A stretch of DNA of 64,000 nt from Actinomycetota bacterium (GTDB lineage Bacteria > Actinomycetota > Geothermincolia > Fen-727 > Anoxymicrobiaceae), in the NCBI GenBank assembly GCA_018831265.1, contig JAHJCO010000059.1, positions 76,708 to 140,707 of the forward strand, in the 5' to 3' direction. Positions 3,513 through 50,390 of the stretch are shown one piece after another (within the stretch, counting starts at the first letter, position 1; the number at the start of each line of letters is the position of its first letter). Below the pieces are notes generated by a model. That model did no database searches, had not been told where the DNA came from, and saw nothing but the letters and a program-made list of their open reading frames with translations. The position numbers and the translations under genes are program-made.

Positions 3513-3597
3513 AGTGTAGCAAAAGGGTCAGGCACTTTTGCTACACTCTTGCCACAGGAACAGCACGTGCAAAAGGGTCAGGCACTTGTGCACATGA
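3513..3597. repeat. Two REP-like hairpins (stem ...GTAGCAAAAG / loop GGTCAGGCA / CTTTTGCTAC...)
   Basis: agtgtagcaaaag-ggtcaggca-cttttgctacact and gtgcaaaag-ggtcaggca-cttgtgcac; GTAG tetranucleotide 5' of stem. Confidence 0.8.
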
Positions 3598-3981: not shown

Positions 3982-4035
3982 TGTAGCAGCAGTGTAGCAA
4001 AAGTAGCAAAAGGGTCAGGCACTTTTGCTACATCC
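3982..4035. repeat. REP-like hairpin(s), GTAGCAAAAG-GGTCAGGCA-CTTTTGCTAC
   Basis: tgtagcagcagtgtagcaaaagtagcaaaagggtcaggcacttttgctacat. Confidence 0.8.
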
Positions 4036-6511: not shown

Positions 6512-6524
6512 CTCATCCTCCTGA

Positions 6525-6659
6525 CTAGAGTAGGGGTCAGGCACTATTCTATTCATTTCCCTGATAAGTCCGCCACCGGGGCCGTGACTTGACTGGTGCC
6601 TGACCCCTACTCTAGTCGACCCCTACTCTAGTCATGTGACTTGAATCCCGCCTGGCACC
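6525..6659. repeat. MITE/REP-like element with perfect 20-bp terminal inverted repeats (ctagagtaggggtcaggcac ... gtgcctgacccctactctag) plus partial duplicate
   Basis: Perfect TIRs at 6525-6544 and 6596-6615; shares GGGGTCAGGCAC core with other elements. Confidence 0.8.
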
Positions 6660-9539: not shown

Positions 9540-9797
9540 ATGGCCCAGGCAGCATGGGCGAATGTGCGAATAAAGAAGGAGACCAAGAGCATCTTGGACG
9601 AGATGGCACATGAACTGGACATCTCGCAGGGCGCGGTGATCGAGTTCGCACTCGACCGACTCAGGCGGCAGCGGATATTGGAATCAGCCGCGGCGGCTTA
9701 CGATCGTATGCGCGAGGATCCTGAGGCCGCTCAGGCCTTCGATGAGGAGATGGAAGCGTGGGACCATATTCCTGACGAAGGCTTGGAGAACGTATGA
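9540..9797 (+). CDS. RHH-type antitoxin (MazE/PemI-like)
   Basis: GGGAGG RBS; beta-strand + helix pattern 'NVRIKKETKSILDEMAHELDISQGAVIEFAL'; 4-bp ATGA overlap with the toxin gene. Confidence 0.6.
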   Translation: MAQAAWANVRIKKETKSILDEMAHELDISQGAVIEFALDRLRRQRILESAAAAYDRMREDPEAAQAFDEEMEAWDHIPDEGLENV

Positions 9798-20728: not shown

Positions 20729-20967
20729 CTTATACCCCCTGTTCGAAGCCTGCAGCCCTGATGGTGAATACATCACAACCGACATCTCCCCGTTTGTCTT
20801 CCTGACACAGCGATTCTACCCCTTTCCCTATCGATCTTCGCATCTTCATCACCAATTCCACCGCCTGCTCCGCCTCAGCCTATCACCTGGGACTTCCGGG
20901 GCGGGCGAGTAGGCATCAAGGTCATTGCACTTCAAATGAATTGAATCTGACCTGACCCCCGGTTGAG

Positions 20968-22224
20968 TCATTCCCAGGCGTCTGGGCGGGAGCGGATCTC
21001 GCCGCCCACGACCTCCTCGATCCCGTGATACAGGCCGGCGATTATCCCCTCGAGGTTCCGCAGGCGCTCGGAGAGCAGGTTGCGCGATACGGCGTTGAAC
21101 GCCTTCATCTCCTCGGCTATCAGCCCCGGTGTGGGTATCGGTGCCCCCCTCGGGCGCATCAGGAAAGAGGCAACCCGCAACGATGACGGCGGAGGCGGGC
21201 TCTCCCACGGTTTCAACGGGGGGATAAACAGGTGCGGGAAAGCGAGGGTCTGCGTTGGCATCGCCTCAGCGACCTCCATGAGCCCCATGAGCTTCTTGAG
21301 GGCGCTCAGCATCGCCCTGGGGTTGGAGGTCATCTTCGATGCCAGGGTATCCGCGAATAGGGTCTCGTTGTGCCCGGGGCCCTGGACGTTCATGTCGGCA
21401 AGCTCGGATTCTTCCGGCAGTGACTTCGGCTGCCCCGTCCAGATCGAGAAGGCCGTCGCGCCCCGGACCCTCTGGTAGTAGGTGAGCTGCTTCCATGGCA
21501 TGTACGGCTGGACGATTATCCCCAGCCAGAGCGGCGCCACAGGGATGACGAACAGTGGGAGCATCGCGACGAACGGGTTGTTGAGCGCTATCGCGACCGC
21601 CACGGGGAGCAGTAAGGCGACGAGCGTGACCAGAACCAGTGTCCTGGGCTTCAGGGCGATCGGTGCCTTCAGGCCGGTGTGCGCCGCGATGTGAGCCACC
21701 TGGTGGGCCATCACCACCTCGACCTCCGGGCCGCTCAGCTTCGCGTCAAGCATCTCCGGCGTGACTCCTACGGCGGGCCTGCCGCCCACCTCGAAGGTCA
21801 GCGCGTTCGCCGTCGGCATCCCGACCGGGACCACGTGCGGTGGCCTCACCCCCGCGGCGATGGCCGCCGCCTCAGCCGCCTCCTGGAACAGGTGTAGCCG
21901 GTGGCGGTCGTAGGTCGGGGTCCCGCGACTCAGTGAGCGGTACTGCTGGACCAGCGGTTTCAGGACGGCGAAGTAGTAAGCGGCGGGGAAGAGGATGGCC
22001 AGTATCCCAACGATGAGGAGTGGCTCGGCCACGACGGCCCAGCCTATGTTACTGTGCCCGTACCTTCCCGTGATCGAGCTGAGCCTGAACGCGTTGAACA
22101 CCTGGTAGCCGATGATGAGGAGTATCGGCACGAGTGGCAGCAGGGCCAGGCCGACGCGCAGCCGCGCCCTGTTCCTGTACTTCCTGAGGCTCTTCTCGAT
22201 CTGCGGCTCGAACTTCACCGGCAC
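20968..22224 (-). CDS. Membrane M48/M56-like peptidase homologue with degenerate HExxH (HQVAH)
   Basis: Several TM helices; 'VVMAHQVAHIAAH' in place of HExxH; downstream 'ETLFADTLAS' third-ligand-like region; paralog of 22254-23399. Confidence 0.5.
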   Translation of the reverse strand: MPVKFEPQIEKSLRKYRNRARLRVGLALLPLVPILLIIGYQVFNAFRLSSITGRYGHSNIGWAVVAEPLLIVGILAILFPAAYYFAVLKPLVQQYRSLSRGTPTYDRHRLHLFQEAAEAAAIAAGVRPPHVVPVGMPTANALTFEVGGRPAVGVTPEMLDAKLSGPEVEVVMAHQVAHIAAHTGLKAPIALKPRTLVLVTLVALLLPVAVAIALNNPFVAMLPLFVIPVAPLWLGIIVQPYMPWKQLTYYQRVRGATAFSIWTGQPKSLPEESELADMNVQGPGHNETLFADTLASKMTSNPRAMLSALKKLMGLMEVAEAMPTQTLAFPHLFIPPLKPWESPPPPSSLRVASFLMRPRGAPIPTPGLIAEEMKAFNAVSRNLLSERLRNLEGIIAGLYHGIEEVVGGEIRSRPDAWE

Positions 22225-23399: not shown

Positions 23400-23417
23400 G
23401 ATATGAGTCTAACAGTT

Positions 23418-23461
23418 TCGCATCGGGGTCAGACGCCGATGCGAATGGGGTCAGGCTGGGC
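23418..23461. repeat. REP-like hairpin, variant loop (TTCGCATCGG-GGTCAGAC-GCCGATGCGAA) plus GGGGTCAGGC half-site
   Basis: Identical hairpin at 31097-31125. Confidence 0.8.
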
Positions 23462-23573
23462 CTCCATCATGGTGGAGAGCCTCACCAGCGGCAAGGAAGT
23501 CATGTGCGAGAGGGCCATGTACTGGAACTCGAGGGGAGCGGGCACGGACACCATCGGAGGGTATGCGGAATGA
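23444..23573 (+). pseudogene. C-terminal remnant of a 'YLAEG'-module protein
   Basis: Encodes ...SGKEVMCERAMYWNSRGAGTDTIGGYAE*, matching the last ~35 aa of the paralogs (ERAMYWN..GAGTDTIGG); no upstream domain or start. Confidence 0.55.
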
Positions 23574-23745
23574 AAGAAAACCTCAGCACGTCTTGTTGCA
23601 CTCGATCCGGCCATAATGAAAGAAGACCTCAGCACGTCTTGTTGCGCTCTTCGAGTCCGATCGACCTGTTGTCACAGTGCAAGAAGATGTCTGAGGTATT
23701 GTTTCATTCATCGGTGAAAGAAATGGTCTGAGGTTTTCTTTCACT
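23571..23745. repeat. AT-rich palindromic repeat cluster, family 3 (GAAAGAANACCTCAGACCATTTCTTTC and variants)
   Basis: Direct and inverted copies; same family at 30019-30093 and 56091-56207. Confidence 0.7.
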
Positions 23746-26529: not shown

Positions 26530-26822
26530 GGGGTCAGGCTCAATTCAATTTCAGCGATCAAGCCGCACGACCTGTATGGTGTGAATTGAATTGTGCCTGA
26601 CCCCTAGCCTAGTCAACTTGCGGGCCGCTCGAAGTATTCAATTTCAGCGATCAAGCCGCACGACCTGTATGGTGTGAATTGAATTGTGCCTGACCCCTAG
26701 CCTAGTCAACTTGCGGGCCGCTCGAAGTATTCAATTTCAGCGATCAAGCCGCCCGATCTGTATGGTGTGAATCGAATTGTGCCTGACCCCTAGCTGAGTC
26801 ACTTGTGGCCGCTCAAGGTATT
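26530..26822. repeat. Tandem array (~93-bp unit, ~3 copies) of a MITE-like element with GGGGTCAGGC(T/A)CAATTCAATT inverted arms
   Basis: Units starting ~26581, 26674, 26767 are near-identical, including the internal segment. Confidence 0.85.
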
Positions 26823-30002: not shown

Positions 30003-30018
30003 CTCGCCGCCTCCGTCC

Positions 30019-30093
30019 GGTGAAAAAAAACCTCTGAAAAAAAACCTCAGACCATTTCTTTCACCGAAAGAATACCTCAAACTGTTTTTCACC
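30019..30093. repeat. AT-rich palindromic repeat, family 3
   Basis: ggtgaaaaaaaacctctgaaaaaaaacctcagaccatttctttcaccgaaagaatacctcaaactgtttttcacc. Confidence 0.7.
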
Positions 30094-30222: not shown

Positions 30223-31155
30223 ATGGCGAGAGACTTCAAGGGCTGGTTCAACGAGACCCGCAGGGCGGAGCTGATGCTGATAGGCATCACCGTCATCTGG
30301 GGGCTTACCTTCGCGCTGGTCAAGCGGTCGCTGGACGACATAGCGCCGTTCACCTTCATGGCCTGGCGGTTCATGCTGGCCGCGGCGATCATGCTCGTCC
30401 TCTGCGCGCGGAAGTGGAAGGGCCTGGACCGCCGCATCCTGGTCGCCGGCCTGCTGCTGGGGGCGCTGCTGTACGGCTCCTACGCGTTCCAGACCTTCGG
30501 GCTGCAGTACACCTCCGCGGGCAACGCCGGCTTCATCACCGGCCTCTTCATAGTATTCACGCCGCTGCTCTCCGTGCTGTTCCTGAGGCACAGGCCCGGC
30601 GCCAAGTCCCTTCTGGCGGTGGGCATAGCGCTGTGCGGGCTGTGGGTGCTCTCCGTGCAACCGAACATGGGCATCAACAAGGGGGACGCGCTGGTACTGG
30701 CGTGCGCCTTCACCTACTCGGTGCACATCATCCTGCTGGACAGGTACGTGAAGGTGCACGACCTGGCGCTGCTCACCTTAATCCAGATGGTGGTGCTGGC
30801 GGTGGCCAACACCGGCTCGGGTCTGGTGTTCGAGGAGTTCATCCTCCCCCCCAACGCCTTCGTCTGGATGACGGTCATCATCTGCGGGGCGCTGGCCAGC
30901 GCGCTGGCGTTCTACGTGCAGGGGCACGCCCAGAAGGTGCTGACCCCGGTTCGGACCTCGATGGTGCTCATCATGGAGCCGGTCTTCTCCGTGGTGTTCG
31001 GCATCATCATCCTGGGGGAGTCGCTTTCCTGGCGGGGCGCCCTCGGCAGCGGGCTGATCTTCGCCGGGATGCTGCTTACCGAGCTGCCTGACGAAATTCG
31101 CATCGGGGTCAGACGCCGATGCGAAAAAGTCAATCCTTCAGAGCCCGGTAAATAG
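30223..31155 (+). CDS. DMT-superfamily (EamA) transporter
   Basis: 10 TM helices, two EamA repeats; last ~20 codons run into REP hairpin 31097-31125. Confidence 0.8.
   Translation: MARDFKGWFNETRRAELMLIGITVIWGLTFALVKRSLDDIAPFTFMAWRFMLAAAIMLVLCARKWKGLDRRILVAGLLLGALLYGSYAFQTFGLQYTSAGNAGFITGLFIVFTPLLSVLFLRHRPGAKSLLAVGIALCGLWVLSVQPNMGINKGDALVLACAFTYSVHIILLDRYVKVHDLALLTLIQMVVLAVANTGSGLVFEEFILPPNAFVWMTVIICGALASALAFYVQGHAQKVLTPVRTSMVLIMEPVFSVVFGIIILGESLSWRGALGSGLIFAGMLLTELPDEIRIGVRRRCEKVNPSEPGK
31097..31125. repeat. REP-like hairpin TTCGCATCGG-GGTCAGAC-GCCGATGCGAA
   Basis: Identical to 23418-23446; abuts the 3' end of the RAYT gene. Confidence 0.8.
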
Positions 31156-31861
31156 TCGCAGGATGGACACCGAGGTGCCCGGCCACTCCGGCGACGCTGA
31201 AGCCGCGATCTCTAATGGCACTCCTGATAACGTCGTTCCTCGCGCCGGCGTCCTTGGTGCCCTTGAGGAGTGAGTTCAGTATCAGCGCCTGGTCTTTCAT
31301 GCTGGAGGCTTCGTGAAGCCCCGCGAGAACGTACCCGGTGAATTCTTCACGCGCCCTGGAGGGATTGTCTGAGAAGCATCCGAGAACGAAAGAGGTCGTC
31401 AGGAAGTCGGGTTCAATACAGAGGCCGGCCGTGGCTGAGTAACTGCTCCACCTCCAGTTCTCCGGGGACCCAGCCATGCCTTCCTTGACTGGATTGAGAA
31501 AGATATAGCGGAACAAGGCAAACAGGTGACGCTCGTTCTCCACTAGCGGAGAAAGAAACCTGCCCTGAACGACATGTCCAATCCTCTTGTGCTTCCATGC
31601 GAAGTACCGGCAGTAGTTTCCGTTCAGCTGCTGCATTCCCTCAGAAAGGTTGGCCTCGGGCGTTTCGATCAGAATGTGATAGTGGTTTCCCATCAGGCAG
31701 TAAGCATGGCAGTTCCAACGGAAATCGCGGATCGTGCCAGCCAGTCCCTTGATGAACACGCGACGATCTCCGTTCGTCAGAAAGATCTTCTGTTTATCGT
31801 TCCCTCGGGACATGACGTGGTAGAAAGCCCCTGGGAACAGCTGTCGCGGCTGTCGCCCCAT
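31130..31861 (-). CDS. REP-associated tyrosine transposase (RAYT; IS200/IS605 Y1 HUH family) with C-terminal HTH
   Basis: HUH motif 'GNHYHILIE'; Y1 transposase fold length; C-terminal 'LGVHPATIYRALKD' HTH; flanked by palindromes (31097-31125 and gtgtgcaagttgcacac at ~31890). Confidence 0.85.
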   Translation of the reverse strand: MGRQPRQLFPGAFYHVMSRGNDKQKIFLTNGDRRVFIKGLAGTIRDFRWNCHAYCLMGNHYHILIETPEANLSEGMQQLNGNYCRYFAWKHKRIGHVVQGRFLSPLVENERHLFALFRYIFLNPVKEGMAGSPENWRWSSYSATAGLCIEPDFLTTSFVLGCFSDNPSRAREEFTGYVLAGLHEASSMKDQALILNSLLKGTKDAGARNDVIRSAIRDRGFSVAGVAGHLGVHPATIYRALKD

Positions 31862-31973
31862 GAAGCAATTCTAGCAAGCAAAACAAGCGTGTGCAAGTTG
31901 CACACCTGAAAAGGTCACGAATAATACTCCCGCCGTGTTTTTTTCGCAACGGCGTCTGGCACCATTGCGAAAG

Positions 31974-33143
31974 TCAGATCCAGCCGCGTTTCGCCATGAA
32001 GTTCACCAGCGGACGGCCCAGGCCCGACTTGTACAGGAGCGGAAGTCGCTTCACCGAGGCCTCGTCGTTGCCGCCCTTCATCAGGGGGGCGAGCTTGCCG
32101 AACCCCAGACCCCGGTCCCGGGCCAGCAGGGCCGTCATGTGCATCTGTCCCTCCGGCAGGACGAGGTCACTCGGCCTGGATATAAGGCTCATCGCCCCGC
32201 TGGGGCAGGTGGAGACGCACAGCCCGCAGCCGATGCACCTGTCGGGGTCCACCCGCATCGACCCCTCCCGCGAGACCAGCGCCTCCATCTGGCAGCGCTC
32301 GACGCAGGTCTCGCACTCGTTGCAGAGGTCCGAGTCGATGCGGGCCTGGAAGTTGGTGTAGACGGCCTCGGCCGGCCTCTCGTGCATCTTGAGGAGCTTG
32401 AGCACCCCGCAGCAGCACGAGCAGCAGCAGCATATGTTGATTATCTCCTTGCAGTTGGTCGGTGCGAGCACCAGGCCCGCCTCCTCCGCCCGATCGAGTA
32501 TCTTCAGGGCTTCGTCGACGTCGATCTTCCTGCCTTTGCCGTAGTCGACGTAGTACCGGGCGCCGAGCCCGAAGATGAGGCAGGACTCCAGCGGCTTGTC
32601 GCAGCCCCTGTCCACGAGGTGCTGGGCCTTGCGGCAGATGCAGTCGGCGACCGCGACCTCCGTCTGCCCCTTTACCATCTCACGGACCATGTCGTAGCTG
32701 CCTATGGTCGTGGTCGCCTCGACGGCCGAGTTCACCGGCACCACCCGGAACTGCTTGACCACCGTGTCCGCGAAGTACGGGTCTATCTCCTCCGCGAGCT
32801 CGACGTACTCCCTGTCGATGCTGTCCACGTGGAACTCGTGGATCCCCACAACGAACTGGGCCGCCTGGTAGAACCTGTCCTTCCCGCTCCTCAGGCTCAG
32901 TATGAGGCCCTTGCGCGCCATGGACTCGAGCTTCTGCTCCGCTTCGGCCGCGGGGATTCCCAGGCGCTTCGCGATAGCGCCGGCGGGCTCGGGGAACTGG
33001 CGGAGCTTCATGGTCAGCTCCGCCTCCTCCGGGGTGAAGAACTTCCGGAGTATATCCAGCTCTTTTCCGGTCGGGGTCTCGGGGTAGCCCCCCGGGAGCC
33101 TGTCGAGGAACTCTCGCAGTTCGACGTAAACGGTCTCTGCCAT
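31974..33143 (-). CDS. 4Fe-4S dicluster-domain protein with poly-Cys run (CCCCSCCC) and N-terminal wHTH-like region
   Basis: 'CNECETCVERC' and 'CIGCGLCVSTCP' ferredoxin motifs; 'NICCCCSCCCG'; start MAETVYVEL; the track's extension to 33272 is unsupported. Confidence 0.65.
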   Translation of the reverse strand: MAETVYVELREFLDRLPGGYPETPTGKELDILRKFFTPEEAELTMKLRQFPEPAGAIAKRLGIPAAEAEQKLESMARKGLILSLRSGKDRFYQAAQFVVGIHEFHVDSIDREYVELAEEIDPYFADTVVKQFRVVPVNSAVEATTTIGSYDMVREMVKGQTEVAVADCICRKAQHLVDRGCDKPLESCLIFGLGARYYVDYGKGRKIDVDEALKILDRAEEAGLVLAPTNCKEIINICCCCSCCCGVLKLLKMHERPAEAVYTNFQARIDSDLCNECETCVERCQMEALVSREGSMRVDPDRCIGCGLCVSTCPSGAMSLISRPSDLVLPEGQMHMTALLARDRGLGFGKLAPLMKGGNDEASVKRLPLLYKSGLGRPLVNFMAKRGWI

Positions 33144-37000: not shown

Positions 37001-37220
37001 CGCGGATCTCTGTGCGATGCTCGCAACCGGCTGCTTCCCGTTCACCATCAACCCGAACCTCGACCTGACCTACAGCGATTTCGTCTTCGCGTACGGCGAT
37101 GTCGCCGATGCCGCCAGGCAGGCGAGAGTCAAGGTAGATAACCTCGCCAACGAGGCGCTGCTGCCTTACCGCGAGCTGCGCGCCCGCGAGCTGGACGAGG
37201 AACAGGAAGAGGGCGAATGA
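34071..37220 (+). CDS. addB: AddB/RexB-like PD-(D/E)XK nuclease subunit (no Walker A)
   Basis: GTG start with GGGAG RBS; C-terminal RecB-type nuclease motif 'FEVCDYKSG'; ~1050 aa; immediately upstream of and overlapping the AddA-like gene. Confidence 0.7.
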   Translation: MNFQSNTLVEAIASLCAEEPLKPKIIIAPSNRAGNQWLERVAMSGRPVLNAGSRTLRGLALELSAPLLVERGLQLVGGIRAQVLMDRAFARISPKEPYLSRLEPGPGLVRTLLGAVRDLRLAGLDADAVDERAFEVRSKGAEVKALLEAFESVLAEGGLTDYAGCLRLAVERVTSDRGLPLDSLVAIPADLEERLAGLERSLWSAMPESNRRILEVDLPGDPSTDSSRRYMLSFALHPQTAPDPGPDGGGVRMFRAVGEVNEVREVFRRVVEEGLPFDDVEVLYTEPATYLPLLFELASRQAADGSDELPVTFLEGVPTRYSRPGRALAGWLEWVRGGDLPQGTLVRMVHDGLLEIPAVEGGDLSFARLGAILRSVAIGAGRERYLASLDSEARALTSQIVGLDEAEEEGRDARRRIGLSERLEGLGALRELIGGLLEVVPSTGGQAEALSSASLFLERYARHSGKFDEYSRVILLDSVAEIERCLQDGEVAGFEPWSWLDEVISSISVEGSGPAPGRLHTAPVDKGGHSGRGHTFIVGFDEARFPAAGRQDPVLLDGERERLSDDLLTGEARLTRELEQLMLLFARLRGEVTLSYCCRSLIDDRELFPSPVLLSAYRVLEKRDGDQQDLNAYCGDPVSFAPASPESAIDTTEWWLSLACGRTDRLVPTGLVVASFGHLGRGMRAREMRESPEFTEYDGYVPEAASECDPAREGARPLSASALEELARCPLEYFLHRVLRIDPLEEYEIDPNEWLDARQVGHFLHGCFRIFLERLDERGERPSRDAHLAELRRLFDDELAYWRRVVPPHNEASYKAQARMLERAACIFLTEEELHCVDRRPAYFEVSVGRMPDLPGRRGNEIDTAEPVLVSLPKGMVFRAHGQMDRVDELPGAPEGRRFEVCDYKSGGAGRYDVNDPFACGRHVQNILYTLLLQSRLDELFPGARVEGFSYYFPSLYGRGERVGWTMDELEAGETVLADLCAMLATGCFPFTINPNLDLTYSDFVFAYGDVADAARQARVKVDNLANEALLPYRELRARELDEEQEEGE

Positions 37221-40200
37221 CCGTGCAGCCCGCGAGCCAGCCACCCCCGGACCAGGACCAGCGCGACCTGATCGTCAGCGCGCTCGACCGCAACGTTGTG
37301 GTCGAAGCCGCGGCCGGAACTGGGAAGACCACCAGCATGGTGGACCGCATGGTGGCGCTGCTTCGCACGGGTGCGTGCGACGATATCCGGAGGATGGCGG
37401 CGGTGACGTTTACCCGGAAGGCCGCCTCCGAGCTGCGCGACCGCTTCAGACTTGCCCTGGAGAAGGCCGTGCGCGGGGCCGCCGGCGACGAGAGGGGGCG
37501 CCTTGCCGGGGCGCTGGACAGCATAGACCAGTGCTTCGTGGGTACGATCCACTCGTTCTGCGGCCGGCTGCTCCGCGAGCGGCCCATAGAGGCGGGGGTG
37601 GACCTCGCCTTCGAGGAGCTCGACGAGGACGCCGATATGCGCCTGCGCCAGGAGGCATGGGCGGCATATGCCGAGTCGGTGATAGGGCTCGGCCCGGGGA
37701 GCGTGATCGACGAGCTCGACGACCTCAACCTGGACCTGTCCGACCTCGCCGACACCTTCTACAGGTTCGCCGAGTACCCGGACGTGGACGACTGGCCCCT
37801 GCCTCCCGAGAGCGAAATGCTCGAGGACCTCGACGAGGCGGCAGTAGCGGTGAAGCGTTTCACGGAGCGCATGAGGAAGCTCGCCGACAGGCTGCCCAGG
37901 GAGTGCGGCTCGGACCGGCTGATGCCGCGCTACTCGAAGATGCCGAGGGTGGTATCGCACTACGAGGACCTGAGCGAACGCGCTTCCATGCTCGAGCTCA
38001 TCGACATGTTCTTCGACAAGCGCTCGGGCGCGGTGCTAAAGGAGTGGGTGCAGAAGGGCGGGTTTACCCAGGAGGAGGCGCGCTCGGAGCGCGAGGCCTG
38101 GGACGCTTTCCGCGAGGAGTTCGCCGCGCCGCTCGCCGAGGCGTGGCGGGAGCTTCGCTACCGCACGGTCATGAAGGTGATAACCGAGGCCGGGGCCGTC
38201 TACGATCGCATGAGGGCGGAGCGCGGCCAGCTCGACTTCCAGGACCTGCTGATGAAGGCGGCCGGCCTGCTCAAGGGGAGCCCTCACGTGCGCTCCTACT
38301 TCGCAGGGCGCTACTCGCACCTGCTGGTCGACGAGTTCCAGGACACCGATCCCATACAGGCGGAGGTCATGCTGCTGCTTACCGCTACCGACCCCCGCCA
38401 GGACGACTGGCGCCTGTGCGTGCCCCGCGGCGGGTCGCTGTTCGTTGTGGGGGACCCCAAGCAGTCGATATACCGGTTCCGCAGGGCAGACATCGTTACC
38501 TACAACAGGGTGAAGCGGATGATCCTGGAGGGCGACGGCGGGAAGGGCCGCGGCATCGAGGTCCGGCTGTTCGCCAACTTCCGCACGTCGGCGGCCGTCA
38601 TCCAGTGGATAGACGAAGTCTTCGCGCCCAAGGGTGACTGCACGGACAAGTCCGGCAGGCTGGTTTGCTTCCCGGAGGCGGCCTCCGAGCAGTCTCCGGC
38701 CTACGTCCGGCTGGAGGCCGGCCGGAGCGAGTCCCTTCAGGGCGAGCTGGGAGGAGTGTTCCAGTTGACCATACCCTCCGACGAGATCCTGCTCACCTCC
38801 CACCTCGTGGAGGGCGGACCGCCGACCGCGCAGGAGGCCGCGGTCCTGGCGCGCCGGTACACCAGGAGCGAGCTTGCGGCGTCCTACGAGGCGGACCTCA
38901 TCGCCCGCTACATCCGGTGGGCGATAGACGATCGCGTCACCGTTCCCCGAAGCGAGAAGGAGCTCGAGGATATCCACAGGCGCATGCCCTCGTGCGAGGA
39001 CCCGGCCGCGCTTCGGGCCGAGGACTTCCTGATCATCACGCGAAACAAGACCCACCTGAGCACCTACGGCCAGGCACTCCAGAGGTACGGCATCCCGCAC
39101 CGGGTGACGGGGGGCACTGCCCTGAACGAGGTGGAGGAGCTCCGGCTGCTGCTGACCTGCCTCCGTGCGGTGGACAGGGTCGATGATCCCGTGGCGCTGG
39201 TCGGGGCACTGCGGAGCGAGCTGTTCGGCATCAGTGACGCGGCGCTATACCGGTTCAGGAGGAACGGCGGCCGATTCAACTACAACGGCCCGGTTCCCGA
39301 GGGGCTGCCCCCCGGGGACGAGGAGGCCATCACCGACGCCTTCGACAGGCTGCGCCGGTACCGCGGCTGGGTGAAGACCATGCCACCGCTGGCCGCCTTC
39401 GAGAAGGTCGTCTCGGACCTGGGGCTGATGGTGCTGGCCGCGACCCGCGACGGCGGAGACGTCCAGGCGGGCAGCCTCGGCAAGGCGCTCGAGTTGCTCA
39501 GGGGTGACCAGCGCGCGCACTGGAGCACCTCCCACCTGGTCGATTTCCTCGCCGACCTGGTCGAGGGCGAGTTCAGCTACGACGGGGTGTCGGCACGGTC
39601 ACATGAGGTCGGGGCGGTGAGGGTGATGAACCTCCACAAGGCCAAGGGGCTGGAGTCCACGGTGGTGTTCCTCGCCGACGGCTCCGGCGAGCCCAGGTCG
39701 GGCCCGGAGATCGTCATCGACCGCGGCGGCGACCGGACGATCGGCTACATCGGAGTGTTCGGCCCGAGGTGGGGCGCCTGGTACAGGCCCCTGCTGGCGG
39801 CGCCGGGCGGCTGGGCGGACCGCCAGGCGGTCGAGAAGGAGTTCGAGGCCGCCGAGAGGCTGAGGTTGCGCTACGTGGCGGCCACCAGGGCGGGCTCGGC
39901 GATGATCGTGTGCGAGCGCGAGGACGGCAGGGCCAACGGCTCCAATCCCTGGAAGTATTTCAGGGATCACCTCGCCGGGGTGCCCGACCTGCCTGACCCG
40001 GGCCCGAGGAGCGCACCATCACGGGAGGCGCTCGACATCTCGGTGGAGGACGTGACGAAGGCTTCAGAGGAGGCGGCCGGCAGGATGCGGCGCGCAGAAG
40101 GTCCCACCTACGCGAGGCTCGCGGCCAAAGAGTACGCGCTCCGGGGAAAAGATTTTGCAAAAGGGTCAGGCACTTTTGCACCATCAACCACGGGCGGGCC

Positions 40201-40684
40201 GGAGTATGGCATCAACTGGGGCACCGCCATGCACATGCTGCTGGAGCTGGCTATGAGCCGGCCGGGCTTCGATGTCGAGGCCTGGGCGGAGAGGGTGCTG
40301 GGGGAGAACGAGATCGATCCGGGTGAGACGCCGCGGGCGGTGGAGACCGTCCGGGCGGTCACCGGATCGGCGTTGTGGGAAAGAGCCCTTGCCTCCGACC
40401 TGTGCCTGACGGAGGTCCCGTTCCACATGCTCCTCGGGGATGCGGACATCCCCACCACGATGAACGGGGCCATGGACCTGGCTTTCCGCGAGGAGGGGGG
40501 TTGGGTCATAGTGGACTACAAGACCGACAGGATAAGCGCATCGAGGAGCGAGCGGGCCCTGGCGGACGAGTACGCCCCGCAGCTCGAGCTGTACGGCCGG
40601 GCCTGGGCGGGGTGCACCGGCGAGACCGTCAAGGAGACCGGCCTGTTCTTCGTGGACAACCGTACATACCACAGGATCAGATGA
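37217..40684 (+). CDS. addA: AddA/RecB-like UvrD-family helicase with C-terminal PD-(D/E)XK nuclease
   Basis: Walker A 'AAGTGKTT', 'TFTRKAASELRDR'; C-terminal 'GWVIVDYKTDRI'. Confidence 0.85.
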   Translation: MTVQPASQPPPDQDQRDLIVSALDRNVVVEAAAGTGKTTSMVDRMVALLRTGACDDIRRMAAVTFTRKAASELRDRFRLALEKAVRGAAGDERGRLAGALDSIDQCFVGTIHSFCGRLLRERPIEAGVDLAFEELDEDADMRLRQEAWAAYAESVIGLGPGSVIDELDDLNLDLSDLADTFYRFAEYPDVDDWPLPPESEMLEDLDEAAVAVKRFTERMRKLADRLPRECGSDRLMPRYSKMPRVVSHYEDLSERASMLELIDMFFDKRSGAVLKEWVQKGGFTQEEARSEREAWDAFREEFAAPLAEAWRELRYRTVMKVITEAGAVYDRMRAERGQLDFQDLLMKAAGLLKGSPHVRSYFAGRYSHLLVDEFQDTDPIQAEVMLLLTATDPRQDDWRLCVPRGGSLFVVGDPKQSIYRFRRADIVTYNRVKRMILEGDGGKGRGIEVRLFANFRTSAAVIQWIDEVFAPKGDCTDKSGRLVCFPEAASEQSPAYVRLEAGRSESLQGELGGVFQLTIPSDEILLTSHLVEGGPPTAQEAAVLARRYTRSELAASYEADLIARYIRWAIDDRVTVPRSEKELEDIHRRMPSCEDPAALRAEDFLIITRNKTHLSTYGQALQRYGIPHRVTGGTALNEVEELRLLLTCLRAVDRVDDPVALVGALRSELFGISDAALYRFRRNGGRFNYNGPVPEGLPPGDEEAITDAFDRLRRYRGWVKTMPPLAAFEKVVSDLGLMVLAATRDGGDVQAGSLGKALELLRGDQRAHWSTSHLVDFLADLVEGEFSYDGVSARSHEVGAVRVMNLHKAKGLESTVVFLADGSGEPRSGPEIVIDRGGDRTIGYIGVFGPRWGAWYRPLLAAPGGWADRQAVEKEFEAAERLRLRYVAATRAGSAMIVCEREDGRANGSNPWKYFRDHLAGVPDLPDPGPRSAPSREALDISVEDVTKASEEAAGRMRRAEGPTYARLAAKEYALRGKDFAKGSGTFAPSTTGGPEYGINWGTAMHMLLELAMSRPGFDVEAWAERVLGENEIDPGETPRAVETVRAVTGSALWERALASDLCLTEVPFHMLLGDADIPTTMNGAMDLAFREEGGWVIVDYKTDRISASRSERALADEYAPQLELYGRAWAGCTGETVKETGLFFVDNRTYHRIR
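40156..40180. repeat. REP hairpin (TGCAAAAG-GGTCAGGCA-CTTTTGCA) embedded in frame in the AddA-like CDS
   Basis: Encodes ...DFAKGSGTFAP... in the linker before the nuclease domain. Confidence 0.75.
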
Positions 40685-41521: not shown

Positions 41522-43204
41522 ATGGCCAGGATGATCCCCGAGATAGAGGTCGGCCGGTATCCCCACGGCGAGGGACTCCTCTACCGCTGGCTCAAGGGGC
41601 TGCCCGACGATTACCGCGTCTTCCACGGCGTCCACCTGCTCCGGCAGTCCGGCGGCTCGCTGAGGCGCGGAGAGGCCGACTTCGTGGTGCTCCACAAGGA
41701 CCTGGGCTTCCTGGTGATAGAGGTCAAGGGCGGCAAGGTCACCTGCCAGCCGGGTAGGGGCCGGTGGACCTCGACGGACTACCGGGGCGAGGAGCATCCG
41801 ATCAAGGACCCGTTCCTGCAGGCTGAACGCAACGTCAACGCCATCGTCGAGCGCATCAGGGACTCAGGGGTGTTCGGCCCCGGCCCGCTGAAGACCCTGC
41901 CCGTCACGGTGGGCTACTGCGTAGCCTTCCCCGACGGGGTGGCGCAGCAGAAGAACCTCCCGCTGCACGTGGTGCCGGAGGTCGTCATAGACAGCCGGGA
42001 CGCGGCCCGGATGGCCGCGCGGATCGAGGGGCTGTTCGGCGCCTGGCGAAAGAAGAGGCCCGGATCGCGCGGCTTCACCCCCCGGGAGTTCAACGACCTG
42101 TGCAACAAGGTCCTGCTCACCCGGTTCAACGTGACCGTGCCCCTGAGCGTGAGATTCGGGAGGGAGAAGGAGCGCTTCGAGTCCCTGACCGACGAGCAGT
42201 GCCGCATCCTGGAGACCGTCTCCGGCGGGAAGCGCGCCCTGTTCAGGGGATACGCGGGGACGGGCAAGACGCAGTTGCTGATGGAGAACGCCAGGCGCTT
42301 CGCCGCCGCCGCCGCCCGGGTACTGGTGGTCTGCTACAACCAGCCGCTCGCGGAACTCCTCTCACAGTGGGCCGCGAACGTCTGCGGAGCCGGAGGCGTA
42401 ACGGTCAGGCACTTCCACGGCCTCGCCGAGGAGTATGCCGGCGAGGCGGGTCTCGACTTCGATGTCCCGCCGGAGGACGAGCCGGACGCGCTGCAGGCCT
42501 TCTACGAGAGGGGATCGGCGGCCCTGCTGGAGGCGGCGCTTGCCGAGGCGCCCGGACGTTTCGATTGCGTGCTGGTGGACGAGGGCCAGGACTTCCACCT
42601 GGAGTGGCTGCGGGTGCTCTCGGAGCTGCTCGACCCGGCGGGGATGGACGTCTTCCACATCTTCTACGACGAGCAGCAGAACGTCTACGGCAAGGAGCTC
42701 GAGTTCCCCTTCGAGGCCGTGCCCTACGACCTGAGCTATCAGATGCGCAGCACCGCGAACGTCTGCGAGGTCGCCCGGAAGGCCGGCTCGGTCGATATCC
42801 GGTGCTTCCCAGACTGGGTCAAAGGTGCCCCCGTGAAGTACTTCCCCTACCGTGAACCGTCCGAGCAGGTCGCCCTGATCGAGAAGGTGGTCAGGGAGCT
42901 TCTCGACAAAGGCATCGACCCCTCACAGGTGATGGTGATCTCGTCACACCGCAGGGCCCGCTCCTGCCTGGCCGGGGTCAACCGACTGCAGGGGTACCCG
43001 CTGGTGGAGTACCGGCCCCCCGGCGAGGAGGACACCATCGCGTTCTCCAGCCTGCACCGCGCCAAGGGCCTCGAGTCGGACGTGGTGATCTTCTGTGACG
43101 TGGACGGCGGCGAGCCGTACTGCAGCCGCTCAAACCAGTACGTGGCGGTCTCGCGCGCCCGCCACCTGCTCTACATCATCCACCGCAGGGACTGGAAGCT
43201 TTGA
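41522..43204 (+). CDS. NERD-domain nuclease fused to SF1 (UvrD/DUF2075-like) helicase
   Basis: N-terminal NERD 'GEADFVVLHKDLGFLVIEVKG'; Walker A 'GYAGTGKTQ', Walker B 'VLVDEGQD'; C-terminal 'SLHRAKGLESDVVIF'. Confidence 0.75.
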   Translation: MARMIPEIEVGRYPHGEGLLYRWLKGLPDDYRVFHGVHLLRQSGGSLRRGEADFVVLHKDLGFLVIEVKGGKVTCQPGRGRWTSTDYRGEEHPIKDPFLQAERNVNAIVERIRDSGVFGPGPLKTLPVTVGYCVAFPDGVAQQKNLPLHVVPEVVIDSRDAARMAARIEGLFGAWRKKRPGSRGFTPREFNDLCNKVLLTRFNVTVPLSVRFGREKERFESLTDEQCRILETVSGGKRALFRGYAGTGKTQLLMENARRFAAAAARVLVVCYNQPLAELLSQWAANVCGAGGVTVRHFHGLAEEYAGEAGLDFDVPPEDEPDALQAFYERGSAALLEAALAEAPGRFDCVLVDEGQDFHLEWLRVLSELLDPAGMDVFHIFYDEQQNVYGKELEFPFEAVPYDLSYQMRSTANVCEVARKAGSVDIRCFPDWVKGAPVKYFPYREPSEQVALIEKVVRELLDKGIDPSQVMVISSHRRARSCLAGVNRLQGYPLVEYRPPGEEDTIAFSSLHRAKGLESDVVIFCDVDGGEPYCSRSNQYVAVSRARHLLYIIHRRDWKL

Positions 43205-43212
43205 CTAGGATA

Positions 43213-43260
43213 GGGGTCAGGCACCATTCAAGTCATTTGACTTGAATGGTGCCTGACCCC
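43213..43260. repeat. Perfect 48-bp palindrome (GGGGTCAGGCACCATTCAAGTCA tt TGACTTGAATGGTGCCTGACCCC) between convergent genes
   Basis: 23-bp perfect arms; sits between the stops of 41522-43204 (+) and 43321-44544 (-). Confidence 0.85.
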
Positions 43261-43320
43261 GGGTCTAGTCACGCGCGGGGCTGAGAGCCCCGCCTCAAAG
43301 CCCCGCCTCGACAGCCCTCT

Positions 43321-45865: not shown

Positions 45866-45985
45866 CCGGGGTCAAACCTGGTTCTTTGCATTTCTTGCAT
45901 TTGGGGTCAAACCTGAGATCTTGCATACCCCTGACGACTGCAACAAGAACGTAAGAAACGCAGAATCTCAGGTTTGACCCCTAGA
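45866..45985. repeat. MITE-like element, family 4: 17-bp perfect inverted repeats GGGGTCAAACCTGAGAT ... ATCTCAGGTTTGACCCC plus extra half-copy
   Basis: IRs at ~45902-45918 and 45966-45982; half copy at ~45868. Confidence 0.75.
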
Positions 45986-48328: not shown

Positions 48329-48360
48329 GCGCTCCCCCCTTGGAGTCGGTTACCCCTACG

Positions 48361-48393
48361 ATGTAATAAAAGGGTCAGGCCCTTTTATTACAT
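48361..48393. repeat. REP hairpin ATGTAATAAAAG-GGTCAGGCC-CTTTTATTACAT
   Basis: Loop conserved, stem differs from the other copies. Confidence 0.8.
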
Positions 48394-48463
48394 CTGCTGT
48401 ACCTGTCACTGCATAGAATAATGACTTCGGGCGTCAAGCGCCAACCCCTGCTCCTGACTCCCT

Positions 48464-50273: not shown

Positions 50274-50302
50274 TGTGCAAAAGTGCCTGACCCTTTAGCA
50301 CA
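50274..50302. repeat. REP hairpin (reverse orientation) TGTGCAAAAG-TGCCTGACC-CTTTAGCACA just 3' of the tRNA
   Basis: Loop is the reverse complement of GGTCAGGCA. Confidence 0.75.
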
Positions 50303-50313
50303 TCAGGGTCGTG

Positions 50314-50390
50314 TGGAGCCCCGGGCGGGACTCGAACCCGCGACCTACGGATTAGGAATCCGTCGCTCCATCCGTCTGAGCTACCGGGGC
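50314..50390 (-). tRNA. tRNA-Arg (anticodon CCU)
   Basis: Cloverleaf: acceptor GCCCCGG/CCGGGGC, D-stem GCTC/GAGC, anticodon stem ACGGA/TCCGT with loop TTCCTAA, T-arm GCGGG-TTCGAGT-CCCGC, encoded CCA. Confidence 0.85.

What the first reader, a model, noticed from the sequence alone, without database searches (positions are those of the whole stretch)
31130..31861. RAYT (REP-associated tyrosine transposase) gene co-resident with the REP population
The protein has the single-Tyr HUH signature 'HYHILIE' of IS200/IS605-type Y1 transposases, a C-terminal HTH, and no partner TnpB. Its 3' end abuts hairpin 31097-31125 and its 5' side carries palindrome gtgtgcaagttgcacac. The window holds more than 15 REP/MITE-like palindromes with a GGGGTCA/GGTCAGGCA core, several with a GTAG tetranucleotide 5' of the stem, as in characterised RAYT/REP pairs. 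This is the likely mobilising enzyme for those elements.
Basis: partly seen in the sequence, partly recalled or inferred. Interest (0 to 1): 0.7.

Follow-up and report, generated by a model that had tools for sequence, protein, structure and literature searches.

The report
TIRYT-type tyrosine nuclease with hairpin repeats
The gene is real and encodes a single-copy RAYT-like HUH/tyrosine DNA nuclease of the already described but biochemically untested "TIRYT" branch. Its signature DNA motif GGGGTCAG sits in the loops of about 20 small hairpin repeats scattered between the genes of this window, so the two very probably form one enzyme-plus-miniature-repeat system.

Summary
The ORF 31130-31861 (-) is a genuine 243-aa HUH/Y1 nuclease. 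H60-x-H62, Y119, NP and WxWSS are all intact, and it carries a C-terminal helix-turn-helix.

It is not an IS200 TnpA: no TnpB lies next to it and no IS200 model hits it. It is also not a canonical GTAG-REP RAYT: the NCBIfam RAYT model scores 69.5 bits against a cut-off of 80.

It groups with the published TIRYT proteins (33-41% identity, E 1e-22 to 1e-32) and with subclass 2.1 of the TnpA-Y1 superfamily. The flanking repeats of that group carry GGGGWSAS.

That core is 50-fold over-represented in the window: GGGTCAGGCA occurs 13 times against 0.24 expected. It lies almost only between genes, always in the loop of a hairpin whose stem co-varies, and often as inverted doublets.

In 43 of 70 relatives from many phyla the same core flanks the gene on both sides.

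The window's own cassette is low in GC. Its 3' hairpin is intact (31097-31125, identical copy at 23417-23445) and its 5' repeat has decayed. Its closest relatives carry the two hairpins in direct, not inverted, orientation.

Duplication scars in relatives point to a cleavage site at GGGGTCA|GG.

Verdict: known kind, a variant of moderate interest.

The parts
31130..31861 (-). TIRYT-type HUH/Y1 nuclease gene, 243 aa: HUH H60/H62, catalytic Y119, NPV and WRWSS motifs, C-terminal HTH at about residues 205-242
   Evidence: GC3 is 0.69 against about 0.9 in neighbouring genes, and GC is 0.53 against 0.65.
31097..31125 (+). 3' flanking hairpin (type A'): TTCGCATCGG-GGTCAGACG-CCGATGCGAA, starting 5 nt past the stop codon. 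It is the positional homologue of the 3' repeat of the closest relatives.
   Evidence: -14.7 kcal/mol, z -5.45; alignment A4.
23417..23445 (+). Second, identical copy of the A' hairpin, followed by a further GGGGTCAGGC at 23447
31907..31922 (+). Decayed remnant of the 5' flanking repeat (ATTCGTG..ACCTTTTCA on the coding strand, core deleted)
   Evidence: alignment A3 with L089, L090, L092.
31868..31905 (-). Promoter region: palindrome GTGTGCAAGTTGCACAC (31889-31905) overlapping the -35 box, and an extended -10 TAGAAT (31873-31868) 6 nt before the ATG, which implies a leaderless mRNA. The region is conserved in relatives.
31943..31971 (+). Diverged hairpin TTCGCAA-CGGCGTCTGGCACCA-TTGCGAA, in the same orientation as the 3' hairpin
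   Evidence: (z -2.1).
3514..3593 (+). Two type-A hairpins (3514-3546 and 3567-3593): stem GTrGCAAAAG, loop GGTCAGGCA
4003..4031 (+). Type-A hairpin preceded by a duplicated left arm (GTAGCAAAA GTAGCAAAA)
40155..40180 (+). Type-A hairpin inserted in frame (peptide ..KGSGTF..) in the linker of an AddA-like helicase-nuclease gene (37217-40684)
48360..48394 (+). Hairpin GATGTAATAAAAG-GGTCAGGCC-CTTTTATTACATC, near-identical to the hairpin flanking homologue P0002 (L097)
   Evidence: (z -8.4).
50275..50301 (-). Type-A hairpin lying 16 nt from the low-coordinate (3') end of the tRNA gene at 50317-50390
6523..6617 (.). Type-B inverted doublet (REPIN/MITE-like). Each arm is TGACTAGnnTAG-GGGTCAGGCAC-nATTCAAGTCA. 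A partial duplicate ending at GGGGTC lies beside it.
   Evidence: z -8.2.
26530..26821 (.). Type-B doublet expanded into three 93-nt tandem units, two of them identical
43202..43271 (.). Type-B inverted doublet with 34-nt arms and a 2-nt spacer
   Evidence: -33.6 kcal/mol, z -10.8.
45868..45981 (.). Doublet with core GGGGTCAAACC (as in the repeats flanking homologue P0024, L093), plus an extra partial copy on its outer side
60225..60306 (-). Two degenerate units (GGGGTCAGACA and GGGGTCAGGCG) in the same orientation
20940..20975 (-). Degenerate type-B unit (GGGGTCAGGTCAGATTCAATTCA)

Best explanation
The gene encodes a single-copy, chromosomal HUH/Y1 single-strand DNA nuclease-ligase of the TIRYT branch of RAYT-like proteins (subclass 2.1 of the TnpA-Y1 superfamily), fused to a C-terminal helix-turn-helix.

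Its cognate DNA element is a short hairpin. The loop carries the family-wide core (G)GGGTCAG, and the stem may have any sequence as long as it pairs.

Proposed mechanism (inferred, not shown): when DNA is single-stranded, for example at replication forks, the enzyme recognises the loop-displayed core, with the HTH adding affinity. It cuts at or next to GGGGTCA|GG with Y119 and rejoins the ends. Over time this spreads single hairpins and inverted doublets (MITE/REPIN-like) into intergenic DNA and occasionally, in frame, into genes.

The gene's own cassette is a low-GC island of about 0.85 kb that was once bounded by two such hairpins in direct orientation. The 3' one is intact and the 5' one has lost its core, so the cassette itself is probably no longer mobile and the enzyme would act in trans.

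Which of the four loop/stem classes in the window this enzyme serves is unresolved. The classes are A, A', B and the GGGGTCAAACC type. At minimum it should serve the A' class that flanks it.
For: **Shown**
- Protein identity and intact catalytic residues.
- Fold closest to TnpA_REP 4er8 (Foldseek E 3e-7, TM-target 0.75), with IS608/ISDra2 TnpA at about 1e-4. Only 4er8 is hit by sequence or profile.
- 33-41% identity, E 1e-22 to 1e-32, to six of the seven published TIRYTs tested, against E 2e-6 (17% identity) to E. coli RAYT.
- The core GGGGTCAG fits the published TIRYT repeat consensus GGGGWSAS (PMC3733652).
- In 70 homologous loci from many phyla, 43 have the core on both flanks in inverted orientation and 14 more have it on one flank.
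- In the closer Actinomycetota-type clade, the homologues examined with both flanks in the contig (L003, L085, L086, L089, L090, L092, L093, L098) carry core-bearing repeats on both sides. In L097 the 3' repeat is cut by the contig end.
- The core 10-mer is enriched 50-fold in the window and is almost exclusively extragenic.
- Hairpins fold far better than shuffles. Stems co-vary while the loop is invariant: 8 of 10 pairs change on both sides, 90.8% of cells are paired, and 0 of 500 shuffles reach the observed values.
- Identical copies imply recent duplication: 23417 and 31097, and two 93-nt units.
- Syntenic MAG loci L003 and L085 (87-95% identical) differ by presence or absence of hairpin elements at three intergenic sites, and by a 5-nt against an approximately 105-nt interior of one doublet.

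**Inferred: cleavage position.** In distant loci, 31 of 134 full cores have extra GGGTCA copies within 64 nt on the outer side, where about 2% is expected. Of 44 such copies, 27 stop matching exactly after GGGTCA, and 17 of the 32 partial copies repeat the same outside flank.
Against: - No biochemical data exist for any TIRYT; only two papers mention the term.
- The gene-abutting A' hairpin differs in stem and in the 3' half of the loop from the dominant A and B classes. Those classes match the hairpins flanking other homologues (P0010, P0002, P0024), which suggests other paralogues elsewhere in the genome may drive them.
- The 5' repeat of the cassette is decayed.
- The hairpin units used for the covariation count were selected for having stems, which inflates that test.
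- The duplication scars could arise from replication slippage at a protein-bound site rather than from cleavage.
- Quentin et al. (PMC6006769) found no REP-like sequences near subclass 2.1 genes.
- Di Nocera et al. (PMC3733652) note that repeat families accompany TIRYT genes in only a limited number of genomes.
Confidence: 0.7

Rival explanations
1. It is a canonical RAYT/REP(IN) system as characterised in E. coli and Pseudomonas. The enzyme would recognise a GTAG-tagged REP hairpin through a guide tetranucleotide and cut 5' of it.
For: - The best NCBIfam hit is REP_Tyr_transpos (E 2.7e-19).
- The best structural match is 4er8.
- The gene is single-copy with repeats on its flanks.
- GTAG is present in four units.
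Against: - The score of 69.5 is below the curated cut-off of 80.
- Identity to E. coli RAYT is only 17%, against 33-41% to six published TIRYTs.
- The protein has an extra C-terminal HTH that canonical RAYTs lack.
- The conserved element is the loop, not the stem or a 5' tag.
- GTAG is absent from the equivalent hairpins in relatives, which have GGTGCAAAAG or TTCGCAAAGG.
- The repeat core fits GGGGWSAS, which Di Nocera et al. describe as unrelated to GTAG REPs.
Confidence: 0.08
2. It is an autonomous IS200-like insertion sequence. Two hairpins on the same strand would act as left and right ends, and the whole 0.85-kb cassette would move as single-stranded DNA without a TnpB.
For: - The window and its four closest relatives (L089, L090, L092, L098) have both flanking repeats in direct orientation on the coding strand.
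- The gene has foreign composition: GC3 0.69 against 0.9.
- The fold is shared with IS608 and ISDra2 TnpA.
Against: - There is one copy in 64 kb.
- The identical protein is seen in the same context in the only two other contigs.
- Homologue P0024 sits at one fixed locus in all 4 contigs shown (8.5-24 kb) of the 24 read that carry it.
- The family is rare on plasmids: 14 of 72,556 records.
- The 5' end is decayed in the window.
- No IS200 model hits the protein.
Confidence: 0.1
3. The hairpins are host elements unrelated to the enzyme's catalysis, such as terminators, mRNA stabilisers or protein-binding sites. The gene would then be a domesticated DNA-binding regulator that merely shares a binding motif with them.
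For: - Nearly all copies are extragenic and many lie 3' of genes.
- The protein carries an HTH.
- A palindrome overlaps its own promoter.
Against: - No Rfam family matches any of the hairpins.
- There are no T-tracts after the stems: the scan of 30900-32100 found only one terminator-like site, the promoter palindrome.
- The HUH and Tyr residues are invariant in 111 homologues, which argues for retained catalysis.
- Copies are polymorphic between near-identical genomes and include identical duplicates and an in-frame intragenic insertion.
- The breakpoint hot spot at GGGGTCA| points to cutting and joining.
Confidence: 0.1

Closest known systems
TIRYT / TIRtron (Di Nocera, De Gregorio & Rocco 2013, PMC3733652)
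   Same: - The core is a RAYT-like HUH/Y1 domain with the same N-terminal and NPV...WSS signatures.
- Identity is 33-41% to sml1152, sml4509, pca3049, dau2153, gsu2396 and tkm1558.
- The flanking repeats carry GGGGWSAS (here GGGGTCAG).
- In some genomes the flanking repeat forms a moderately abundant family arranged as singles, dimers and clusters. Some of those repeats are self-complementary.
   Different: - In the window's sub-clade the two flanking repeats are direct, not inverted. None of the 70 distant loci shows that arrangement.
- The core sits in a hairpin loop with co-varying stems.
- The protein is a short form (240-250 aa) that lacks about 40 residues between the core and the HTH.
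- The host is an uncultured Actinomycetota-like lineage.
- The window's own 5' repeat is decayed.
TnpA-Y1 subclass 2.1 (Quentin, Siguier, Chandler & Fichant 2018, PMC6006769)
   Same: It is the largest TnpA_REP-like subclass. Members have a C-terminal HTH (HTH_23, HTH_28 or Bac_DnaA_C-like), a conserved Ser motif after the catalytic Tyr, and a patchy multi-phylum distribution.
   Different: That study found no REP-like sequences near subclass 2.1 genes. Here, and in L003, L085 and L097, the gene is flanked by hairpins that also form a dispersed family. Assignment to 2.1 is by description only; the authors' HMMs were not available to me.
E. coli TnpA_REP / RAYT with REP-BIME (PDB 4ER8; Messing 2012, Ton-Hoang 2012); REPIN-RAYT systems of Pseudomonas (Bertels & Rainey 2011)
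   Same: Both share the closest solved fold, a single-copy gene flanked by its repeats, extragenic hairpins often arranged as inverted doublets, and the idea of action in trans by a domesticated transposase.
   Different: Sequence identity is 17%. RAYT has no HTH, its REP stems are conserved in sequence, and it depends on a GTAG tag. Here the NCBIfam equivalog cut-off is not reached.
IS200/IS605 TnpA (IS608, ISDra2)
   Same: Both have the HUH/Y1 fold and hairpins at both ends on the same strand, as in the window's sub-clade.
   Different: IS200/IS605 TnpA is a 130-150 aa single-domain protein, usually multi-copy and often paired with TnpB. Here there is no profile hit, a single copy and an added HTH.

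Membership tests
Y1_Tnp / HUH single-Tyr nuclease superfamily (PF01797) | Profile match above the curated cut-off | tested here: met
   34.9 bits against a cut-off of 23, E 1.8e-8, residues 14-96.
Y1_Tnp / HUH single-Tyr nuclease superfamily (PF01797) | HUH motif and a single catalytic Tyr on the following helix | tested here: met
   H60-Y-H62 and Y119 are invariant in the 111-sequence alignment. Y119 aligns with the Y of 'DYIYINPVKHG' in 4er8.
RAYT / TnpA_REP (NCBIfam NF047646 equivalog) | Score at or above the curated cut-off of 80 bits | tested here: not met
   69.5 bits, E 2.7e-19.
RAYT / TnpA_REP | RAYT-specific motifs (Y-x-x-x-NP(V/L)..G..V and W.(W/F)S) that distinguish it from IS200 TnpA | tested here: met
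   RYIFLNPVKEGM...WRWSSY. N123, P124, W138 and S139 are invariant. The same motifs are marked in Di Nocera Additional file 5.
RAYT / TnpA_REP | Gene flanked by GTAG-tagged REP hairpins that are the genome's abundant REP class | tested here: not met
   The flank is TTCGCATCGG-GGTCAGACG-CCGATGCGAA with no GTAG. It has 2 exact copies in the window, and the dominant classes have other stems.
TIRYT / TIRtron | Protein clusters with published TIRYTs rather than with RAYTs | tested here: met
   blastp gives E 2e-32 to 8e-22 against six TIRYTs, and 2e-6 to 1.5e-9 against three RAYTs.
TIRYT / TIRtron | Flanking repeats carry the GGGGWSAS motif | tested here: met
   The 3' hairpin loop reads GGGGTCAG. 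The same core flanks 43 of 70 distant homologues on both sides and all closer ones examined.
TIRYT / TIRtron | The two flanking repeats are terminal INVERTED repeats | tested here: not met
   In the window the 3' hairpin and the upstream hairpin 31943-31971 are in the same orientation, and the positional 5' repeat is decayed. L089, L090, L092 and L098 are direct. L003, L085, L093 and L097 are inverted.
TnpA-Y1 subclass 2.1 | C-terminal HTH_23, HTH_28 or Bac_DnaA_C-like domain | tested here: inconclusive
   HTH_38 and HTH_23 hits have E about 1e-3 but fall below the cut-offs. The model shows a three-helix C-terminus with pLDDT 77-87. There is a weak profile hit to the DeoR HTH, E 0.11. The subclass HMMs were not available.
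IS200/IS605 TnpA | Match to an IS200-type TnpA model, length of about 130-150 aa, and multi-copy or partnered with TnpB | tested here: not met
   No NCBIfam IS200 model hits at E<=1. The protein is 243 aa, present as a single copy, with EamA and Fer4 neighbours.
REPIN-RAYT system (Bertels & Rainey) | Flanking 16-mers are among the most abundant in the genome; vertical inheritance | not testable with these tools
   Only 64 kb of the genome is available. The metagenome scan for the A' 29-mer found nothing.
Any of the above | Sequence-specific cleavage and joining of the hairpin DNA | not testable with these tools
   This needs biochemistry. The only indirect evidence is the breakpoint clustering after GGGGTCA.

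The most novel reading that the evidence does not exclude
TIRYT enzymes may work more like origin-nicking Rep proteins than like IS200/RAYT enzymes. They would read a conserved nonamer-like core (GGGGTCAGG) displayed in a hairpin loop, or at the repeat edge, and nick exactly at GGGGTCA|GG, whereas IS200/RAYT enzymes cut at a guide-specified site outside the hairpin.

The recurrent tandem arrays of [outside flank + GGGGTCA] next to the repeats in many phyla would be the first, purely genomic, mapping of the cleavage site of this untested family.

In addition, the window's sub-clade, with two same-strand hairpins, may represent the still-autonomous, IS200-like ancestor state of TIRtrons.
Probability: 0.3. 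Interest if true: 0.6.

Novelty: new variant of a known kind. Interest (0 to 1): 0.42.

Why it matters
RAYT-like genes with a C-terminal HTH form the largest RAYT-like subclass (14.9% of strains in PMC6006769), yet none has been studied biochemically. The last survey reported no associated repeats for them.

This window and its relatives give a clean case where the family's GGGGWSAS core is displayed in hairpin loops and has spread as a REP-like population. That includes MITE-like doublets and an in-frame insertion in a DNA-repair gene.

Together with the breakpoint hot spot after GGGGTCA, this supplies concrete substrates and a predicted cut site for a first in-vitro test. It also extends REP-type genome structuring to an uncultured high-GC Actinomycetota-like lineage.

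It does not overturn current ideas; it fills in a known but neglected branch.

Tried and rejected
- **Genome-wide REP census.** Not possible. The identical protein occurs only on two 7-kb Logan contigs, which end 32 nt past the gene.
- **Metagenome scan for the A' 29-mer.** 0 hits. The type-A 23-mer gave only 5 short contigs, none carrying a TIRYT gene.
- **Literature search by motif string.** Only unrelated primer matches.
- **GC skew, to relate hairpin orientation to the replication strand.** No usable signal in 64 kb. Single type-A/A' units are 8 on the + strand and 1 on the - strand, but I could not interpret this.
- **Filled against empty site comparison, L003 against L085.** It shows presence or absence, but the surrounding intergenic DNA has diverged too far to read exact insertion boundaries or target duplications.
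- **Palindrome 31889-31905 as a REP or 'empty' hairpin.** Rejected. It aligns with the conserved -35 region of the relatives' promoters.
- **GTAG as a functional tag.** Rejected as unsupported.
- **Known RNA families.** Rfam finds only a tRNA.
- **Plasmid carriage as a sign of mobility.** Rare: 14 records, mostly large non-mobilisable replicons.
Full report
**1. The observation**

The ORF at 31130-31861 on the minus strand is real: 243 aa, ATG start. It contains GNHYHILIETP. A public gene call of the identical protein starts 16 residues later (P0001). The longer start is correct, because M-R--R----GAFYHV is conserved across homologues.

- Pfam Y1_Tnp matches above its cut-off: 34.9 against 23 bits.
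- The only NCBIfam hit is REP_Tyr_transpos, at 69.5 bits, below its cut-off of 80. No IS200 TnpA model appears even at E<=1.
- The only solved relative by sequence or profile is E. coli TnpA_REP, 4er8 (E 0.007 single sequence, 1.2e-4 profile).
- An AlphaFold model built on 111 homologues (pLDDT 88.6) matches 4er8 best (Foldseek E 3e-7, TM-target 0.75). IS608 and ISDra2 TnpA follow at about 1e-4.
- H60, H62, Y119, N123, P124, W138 and S139 are invariant in the family and present here.
- The C-terminus (residues about 205-242) is three helices. The HTH_38 and HTH_23 hits are sub-threshold.
- The neighbours are an EamA transporter and a 4Fe-4S protein. There is no TnpB and no second copy in the window.

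**2. The repeats**

Motif counts are well above chance:

| Motif | Observed | Expected |
|---|---|---|
| GGGGTCA | 36 | 15.1 |
| GGGTCAGGCA | 13 | 0.24 (maximum 2 in 100 shuffles) |

Of 26 GGGTCAG sites, 21 lie in or at the edge of the roughly 7% of the window that my rough GC3-based gene map leaves non-coding.

Every unit is a hairpin with the core in the loop. The stems fall into classes:

- **A:** GT(G/A)GCAAAAG / CTTTTGC(C/T)AC. Sites 3514, 3567, 4003, 40155 and 50275. The hairpin at 48360 is a GTAATAAAAG variant with compensatory changes.
- **A':** TTCGCATCG / CGATGCGAA with loop GGGGTCAGACGC. Sites 23417 and 31097, which are identical.
- **B:** TGACTAGnnTAG / nATTCAAGTCA, mostly as inverted doublets. 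Sites 6523-6617, 26530-26821 and 43202-43271, with degenerate units at 20940 and 60225-60306.
- **GGGGTCAAACC doublet:** 45868-45981.

The hairpins fold far better than shuffled sequence, with z from -5 to -11 for the strong ones. In an alignment of 13 A/A' units from the window and two related MAG loci, 8 of 10 stem pairs change on both sides. The loop GGGTCAG is invariant, 90.8% of cells are paired, and 0 of 500 shuffles reach the observed values. I chose those units for having stems, so the test is generous.

Rfam finds nothing but a tRNA.

GTAG occurs in only four units. It lies inside the stem or directly before GGGG, and it is not conserved in relatives.

**3. Evidence from elsewhere**

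More than 1,500 homologues exist. The nearest are 49-58% identical, short forms of 240-255 aa, from Actinomycetota-type MAGs and metagenomes.

In MAG GCA_018824995.1 (L003; 51% identity; unrelated gene neighbourhood) the gene is flanked by two type-A hairpins in inverted orientation. The stop codon lies in the loop of the 3' one. L085, L097 and L093 are similar, each with its own stem and loop variant.

In 70 more distant loci (36-42% identity) spanning Nitrospirota, Proteobacteria, Bipolaricaulota, Acidobacteriota, Thermotogae, Patescibacteria and others:

- 43 carry GGGTCA(A/G)G on both flanks in inverted orientation. The upstream copy is typically 45-55 nt before the ATG, and its reverse complement lies just past the stop.
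- 14 more carry it on one flank.

This settles that the core belongs to the enzyme family.

**4. What is known**

This is the arrangement that Di Nocera et al. 2013 named TIRtron/TIRYT. They described RAYT-like genes flanked by terminal inverted repeats that share GGGGWSAS and are unrelated to GTAG REPs. In a few species the repeats form moderately abundant families of singles, dimers and clusters (PMC3733652).

Quentin et al. 2018 place most TIRYTs in subclass 2.1 of the TnpA-Y1 superfamily. That subclass is marked by a C-terminal HTH_23, HTH_28 or DnaA_C-like domain. They state that no REP-like sequences were found near those genes (PMC6006769).

Only these two works use the term. I found no biochemistry for the family.

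Using the sequences in Di Nocera's Additional file 5, the window protein gives E 2e-32 to 8e-22 (32-41% identity over the whole core) against six TIRYTs. Against three canonical RAYTs it gives 2e-6 to 1.5e-9.

In Bertels et al. 2017 only RAYT Groups 2 and 3 are strongly linked to REPINs (PMC5581495). I could not map this protein onto their groups.

**5. The window's own cassette**

The gene is a compositional island: GC 0.53-0.56 against 0.65, and GC3 0.69 against about 0.9.

*3' side.* The A' hairpin at 31097-31125 begins 5 nt after the stop. It is the positional homologue of the 3' repeat TTCGCAAAGG-TGCCTGACCCC-TTTTTCGCA of the closest relatives (alignment A4).

*5' side.*
- The position where L089, L090 and L092 carry the same repeat holds only a remnant with the core deleted (31907-31922; alignment A3).
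- A conserved TAGAAT ends 6 nt before the ATG, which implies a leaderless mRNA.
- A further diverged hairpin lies at 31943-31971, in the same orientation as the 3' one.

*Orientation.* In the window and in L089, L090, L092 and L098, both flanking repeats have TGCCTGACCC on the coding strand. They are therefore direct, as in IS200/IS605 ends, and not inverted. None of the 70 distant loci shows that arrangement.

**6. Signs of activity**

- There are identical copies: the two A' hairpins, and two 93-nt units at 26543-26728.
- One type-A hairpin is inserted in frame (..KGSGTF..). It lies between the helicase and nuclease domains of an AddA-like gene.
- Syntenic loci L003 and L085 (87-95% identical) differ by presence or absence of hairpin elements at three intergenic sites. 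They also differ in the interior length of a type-B doublet, 5 nt against about 105 nt.
- Assemblies break at the hairpins.

Against self-mobility of the gene:
- single copy;
- fixed context in independent samples;
- rare on plasmids.

**7. Mechanism**

*Shown:* an intact HUH/Y1 catalytic set, an added HTH, and a family-wide DNA core that here is always presented in a hairpin loop with free stem sequence.

*Inferred:* recognition of the loop-displayed core in single-stranded DNA, Tyr-mediated cleavage and rejoining, and spread of hairpins and doublets in trans.

The candidate cut site comes from scars in the distant loci.

- 31 of 134 full cores have extra GGGTCA copies within 64 nt on the outer side. 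About 2% is expected, and the inner side shows 14 of 134.
- Of 44 such copies, 27 stop matching the full repeat exactly after GGGTCA. The distribution is bimodal: 0 nt of further match in 27 cases, at least 12 nt in 8.
- 17 of the 32 partial copies repeat the same outside flank.

Similar junctions occur in the window and a close relative:
- 6600: GACTAGAGTAGGGGTC|GACTAGAGTAGGGGTCAGG;
- the outer partial copy at 45868;
- the L089 3' flank.

This points to GGGGTCA|GG, but slippage at a bound site is not excluded.

**8. What remains open**

The hairpin that abuts this gene (A') is the minority class in the window. Classes A and 48360, and the GGGGTCAAACC core, resemble the hairpins flanking other homologues (P0010, P0002, P0024). 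The genome may therefore hold further TIRYT paralogues, each with its own class. Alternatively, one enzyme that reads only the loop core could serve all classes.

**9. Verdict**

Relative to what is described, three things vary:
- the short protein form;
- the loop-displayed core with co-varying stems and a REP-like population;
- the direct orientation of the flanking hairpins in this sub-clade.

Interest is moderate. This is a useful, well-defined entry point to an unstudied but already named family.

Noticed in passing
L005-L084 (e.g. L005 ~9965 -, L009 ~9954 +, L011 both ends, L074, L075, L076, L080): Short tandem arrays of [a few nt of outside flank + GGGGTCA] lie directly outside the terminal repeats of distant TIRYT genes. 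Of 44 extra copies, 27 end exactly after GGGTCA, and many are followed by C or CA. This reads as a cleavage or rejoining hot spot. I did not find it described in the two TIRYT papers.
   Followed up: partly
window 40155-40180, within 37217-40684 (+): A type-A hairpin sits in frame (peptide RGKDFAKGSGTFAPS) in the linker between the UvrD_C and PD-(D/E)XK domains of an AddA-like helicase-nuclease. Di Nocera et al. noted that intragenic REPs often lie in replication and repair genes.
   Followed up: partly
window 23571-23743, 30018-30093, 56092-56206; L003 15466-15548: This is a separate hairpin repeat family, TGAAAGAAAnnGGTCTGAGGTTTTCTTTCA, often in tandem or clusters. It lacks the GGGGTCAG core. 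One cluster lies about 1 kb from the TIRYT gene. It is present in L003 and absent at the orthologous site in L085.
   Followed up: no
window 26543-26821: Three tandem 93-nt units, two of them 100% identical, each carry one type-B arm. This looks like a recent local amplification of half a doublet.
   Followed up: no
window 31868-31873 and 31859-31861; alignment A3: A conserved extended -10 box (TAGAAT or TAGTAT) ends 6 nt before the ATG in the window and five relatives. This implies a leaderless transcript for this TIRYT sub-clade.
   Followed up: partly
window 30223-31155 (+) against 31130-31861 (-): The EamA transporter ORF reads through the 3' hairpin and overlaps the TIRYT gene's 3' end by 26 nt. 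Its last ~20 codons (..EIRIGVRRRCEKVNPSEPGK) are probably a tail created by the hairpin insertion.
   Followed up: no
window 50317-50390 (-) and 50275-50301: A tRNA gene has a type-A hairpin 16 nt from its 3' end.
   Followed up: no
L001, L002, L097 (contig ends): Short-read contigs carrying the identical or related gene end 10-32 nt past the stop codon, inside or at the flanking hairpin. This is consistent with assembly breaks at a multi-copy repeat.
   Followed up: no
window 11-2584, 18080-20785, 50911-53784, 60329-61921: Several large ORFs are built from diverged modules of about 303-321 nt (about 100 aa) with the recurring motif ..AEGST.WGF.T....QNPN.. / ..ERSMYW... Loci L003 and L085 encode DUF5719/TIG proteins nearby. 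This looks like a paralogous family of repeat-domain surface proteins.
   Followed up: no
L086 ~8650-8790 and 9560-9630: Homologue P0016 is flanked by repeats whose core is the perfect palindrome GGGGCCAGGCCCC, which departs from GGGGWSAS at position 5. The upstream side holds tandem copies and an assembly gap.
   Followed up: no
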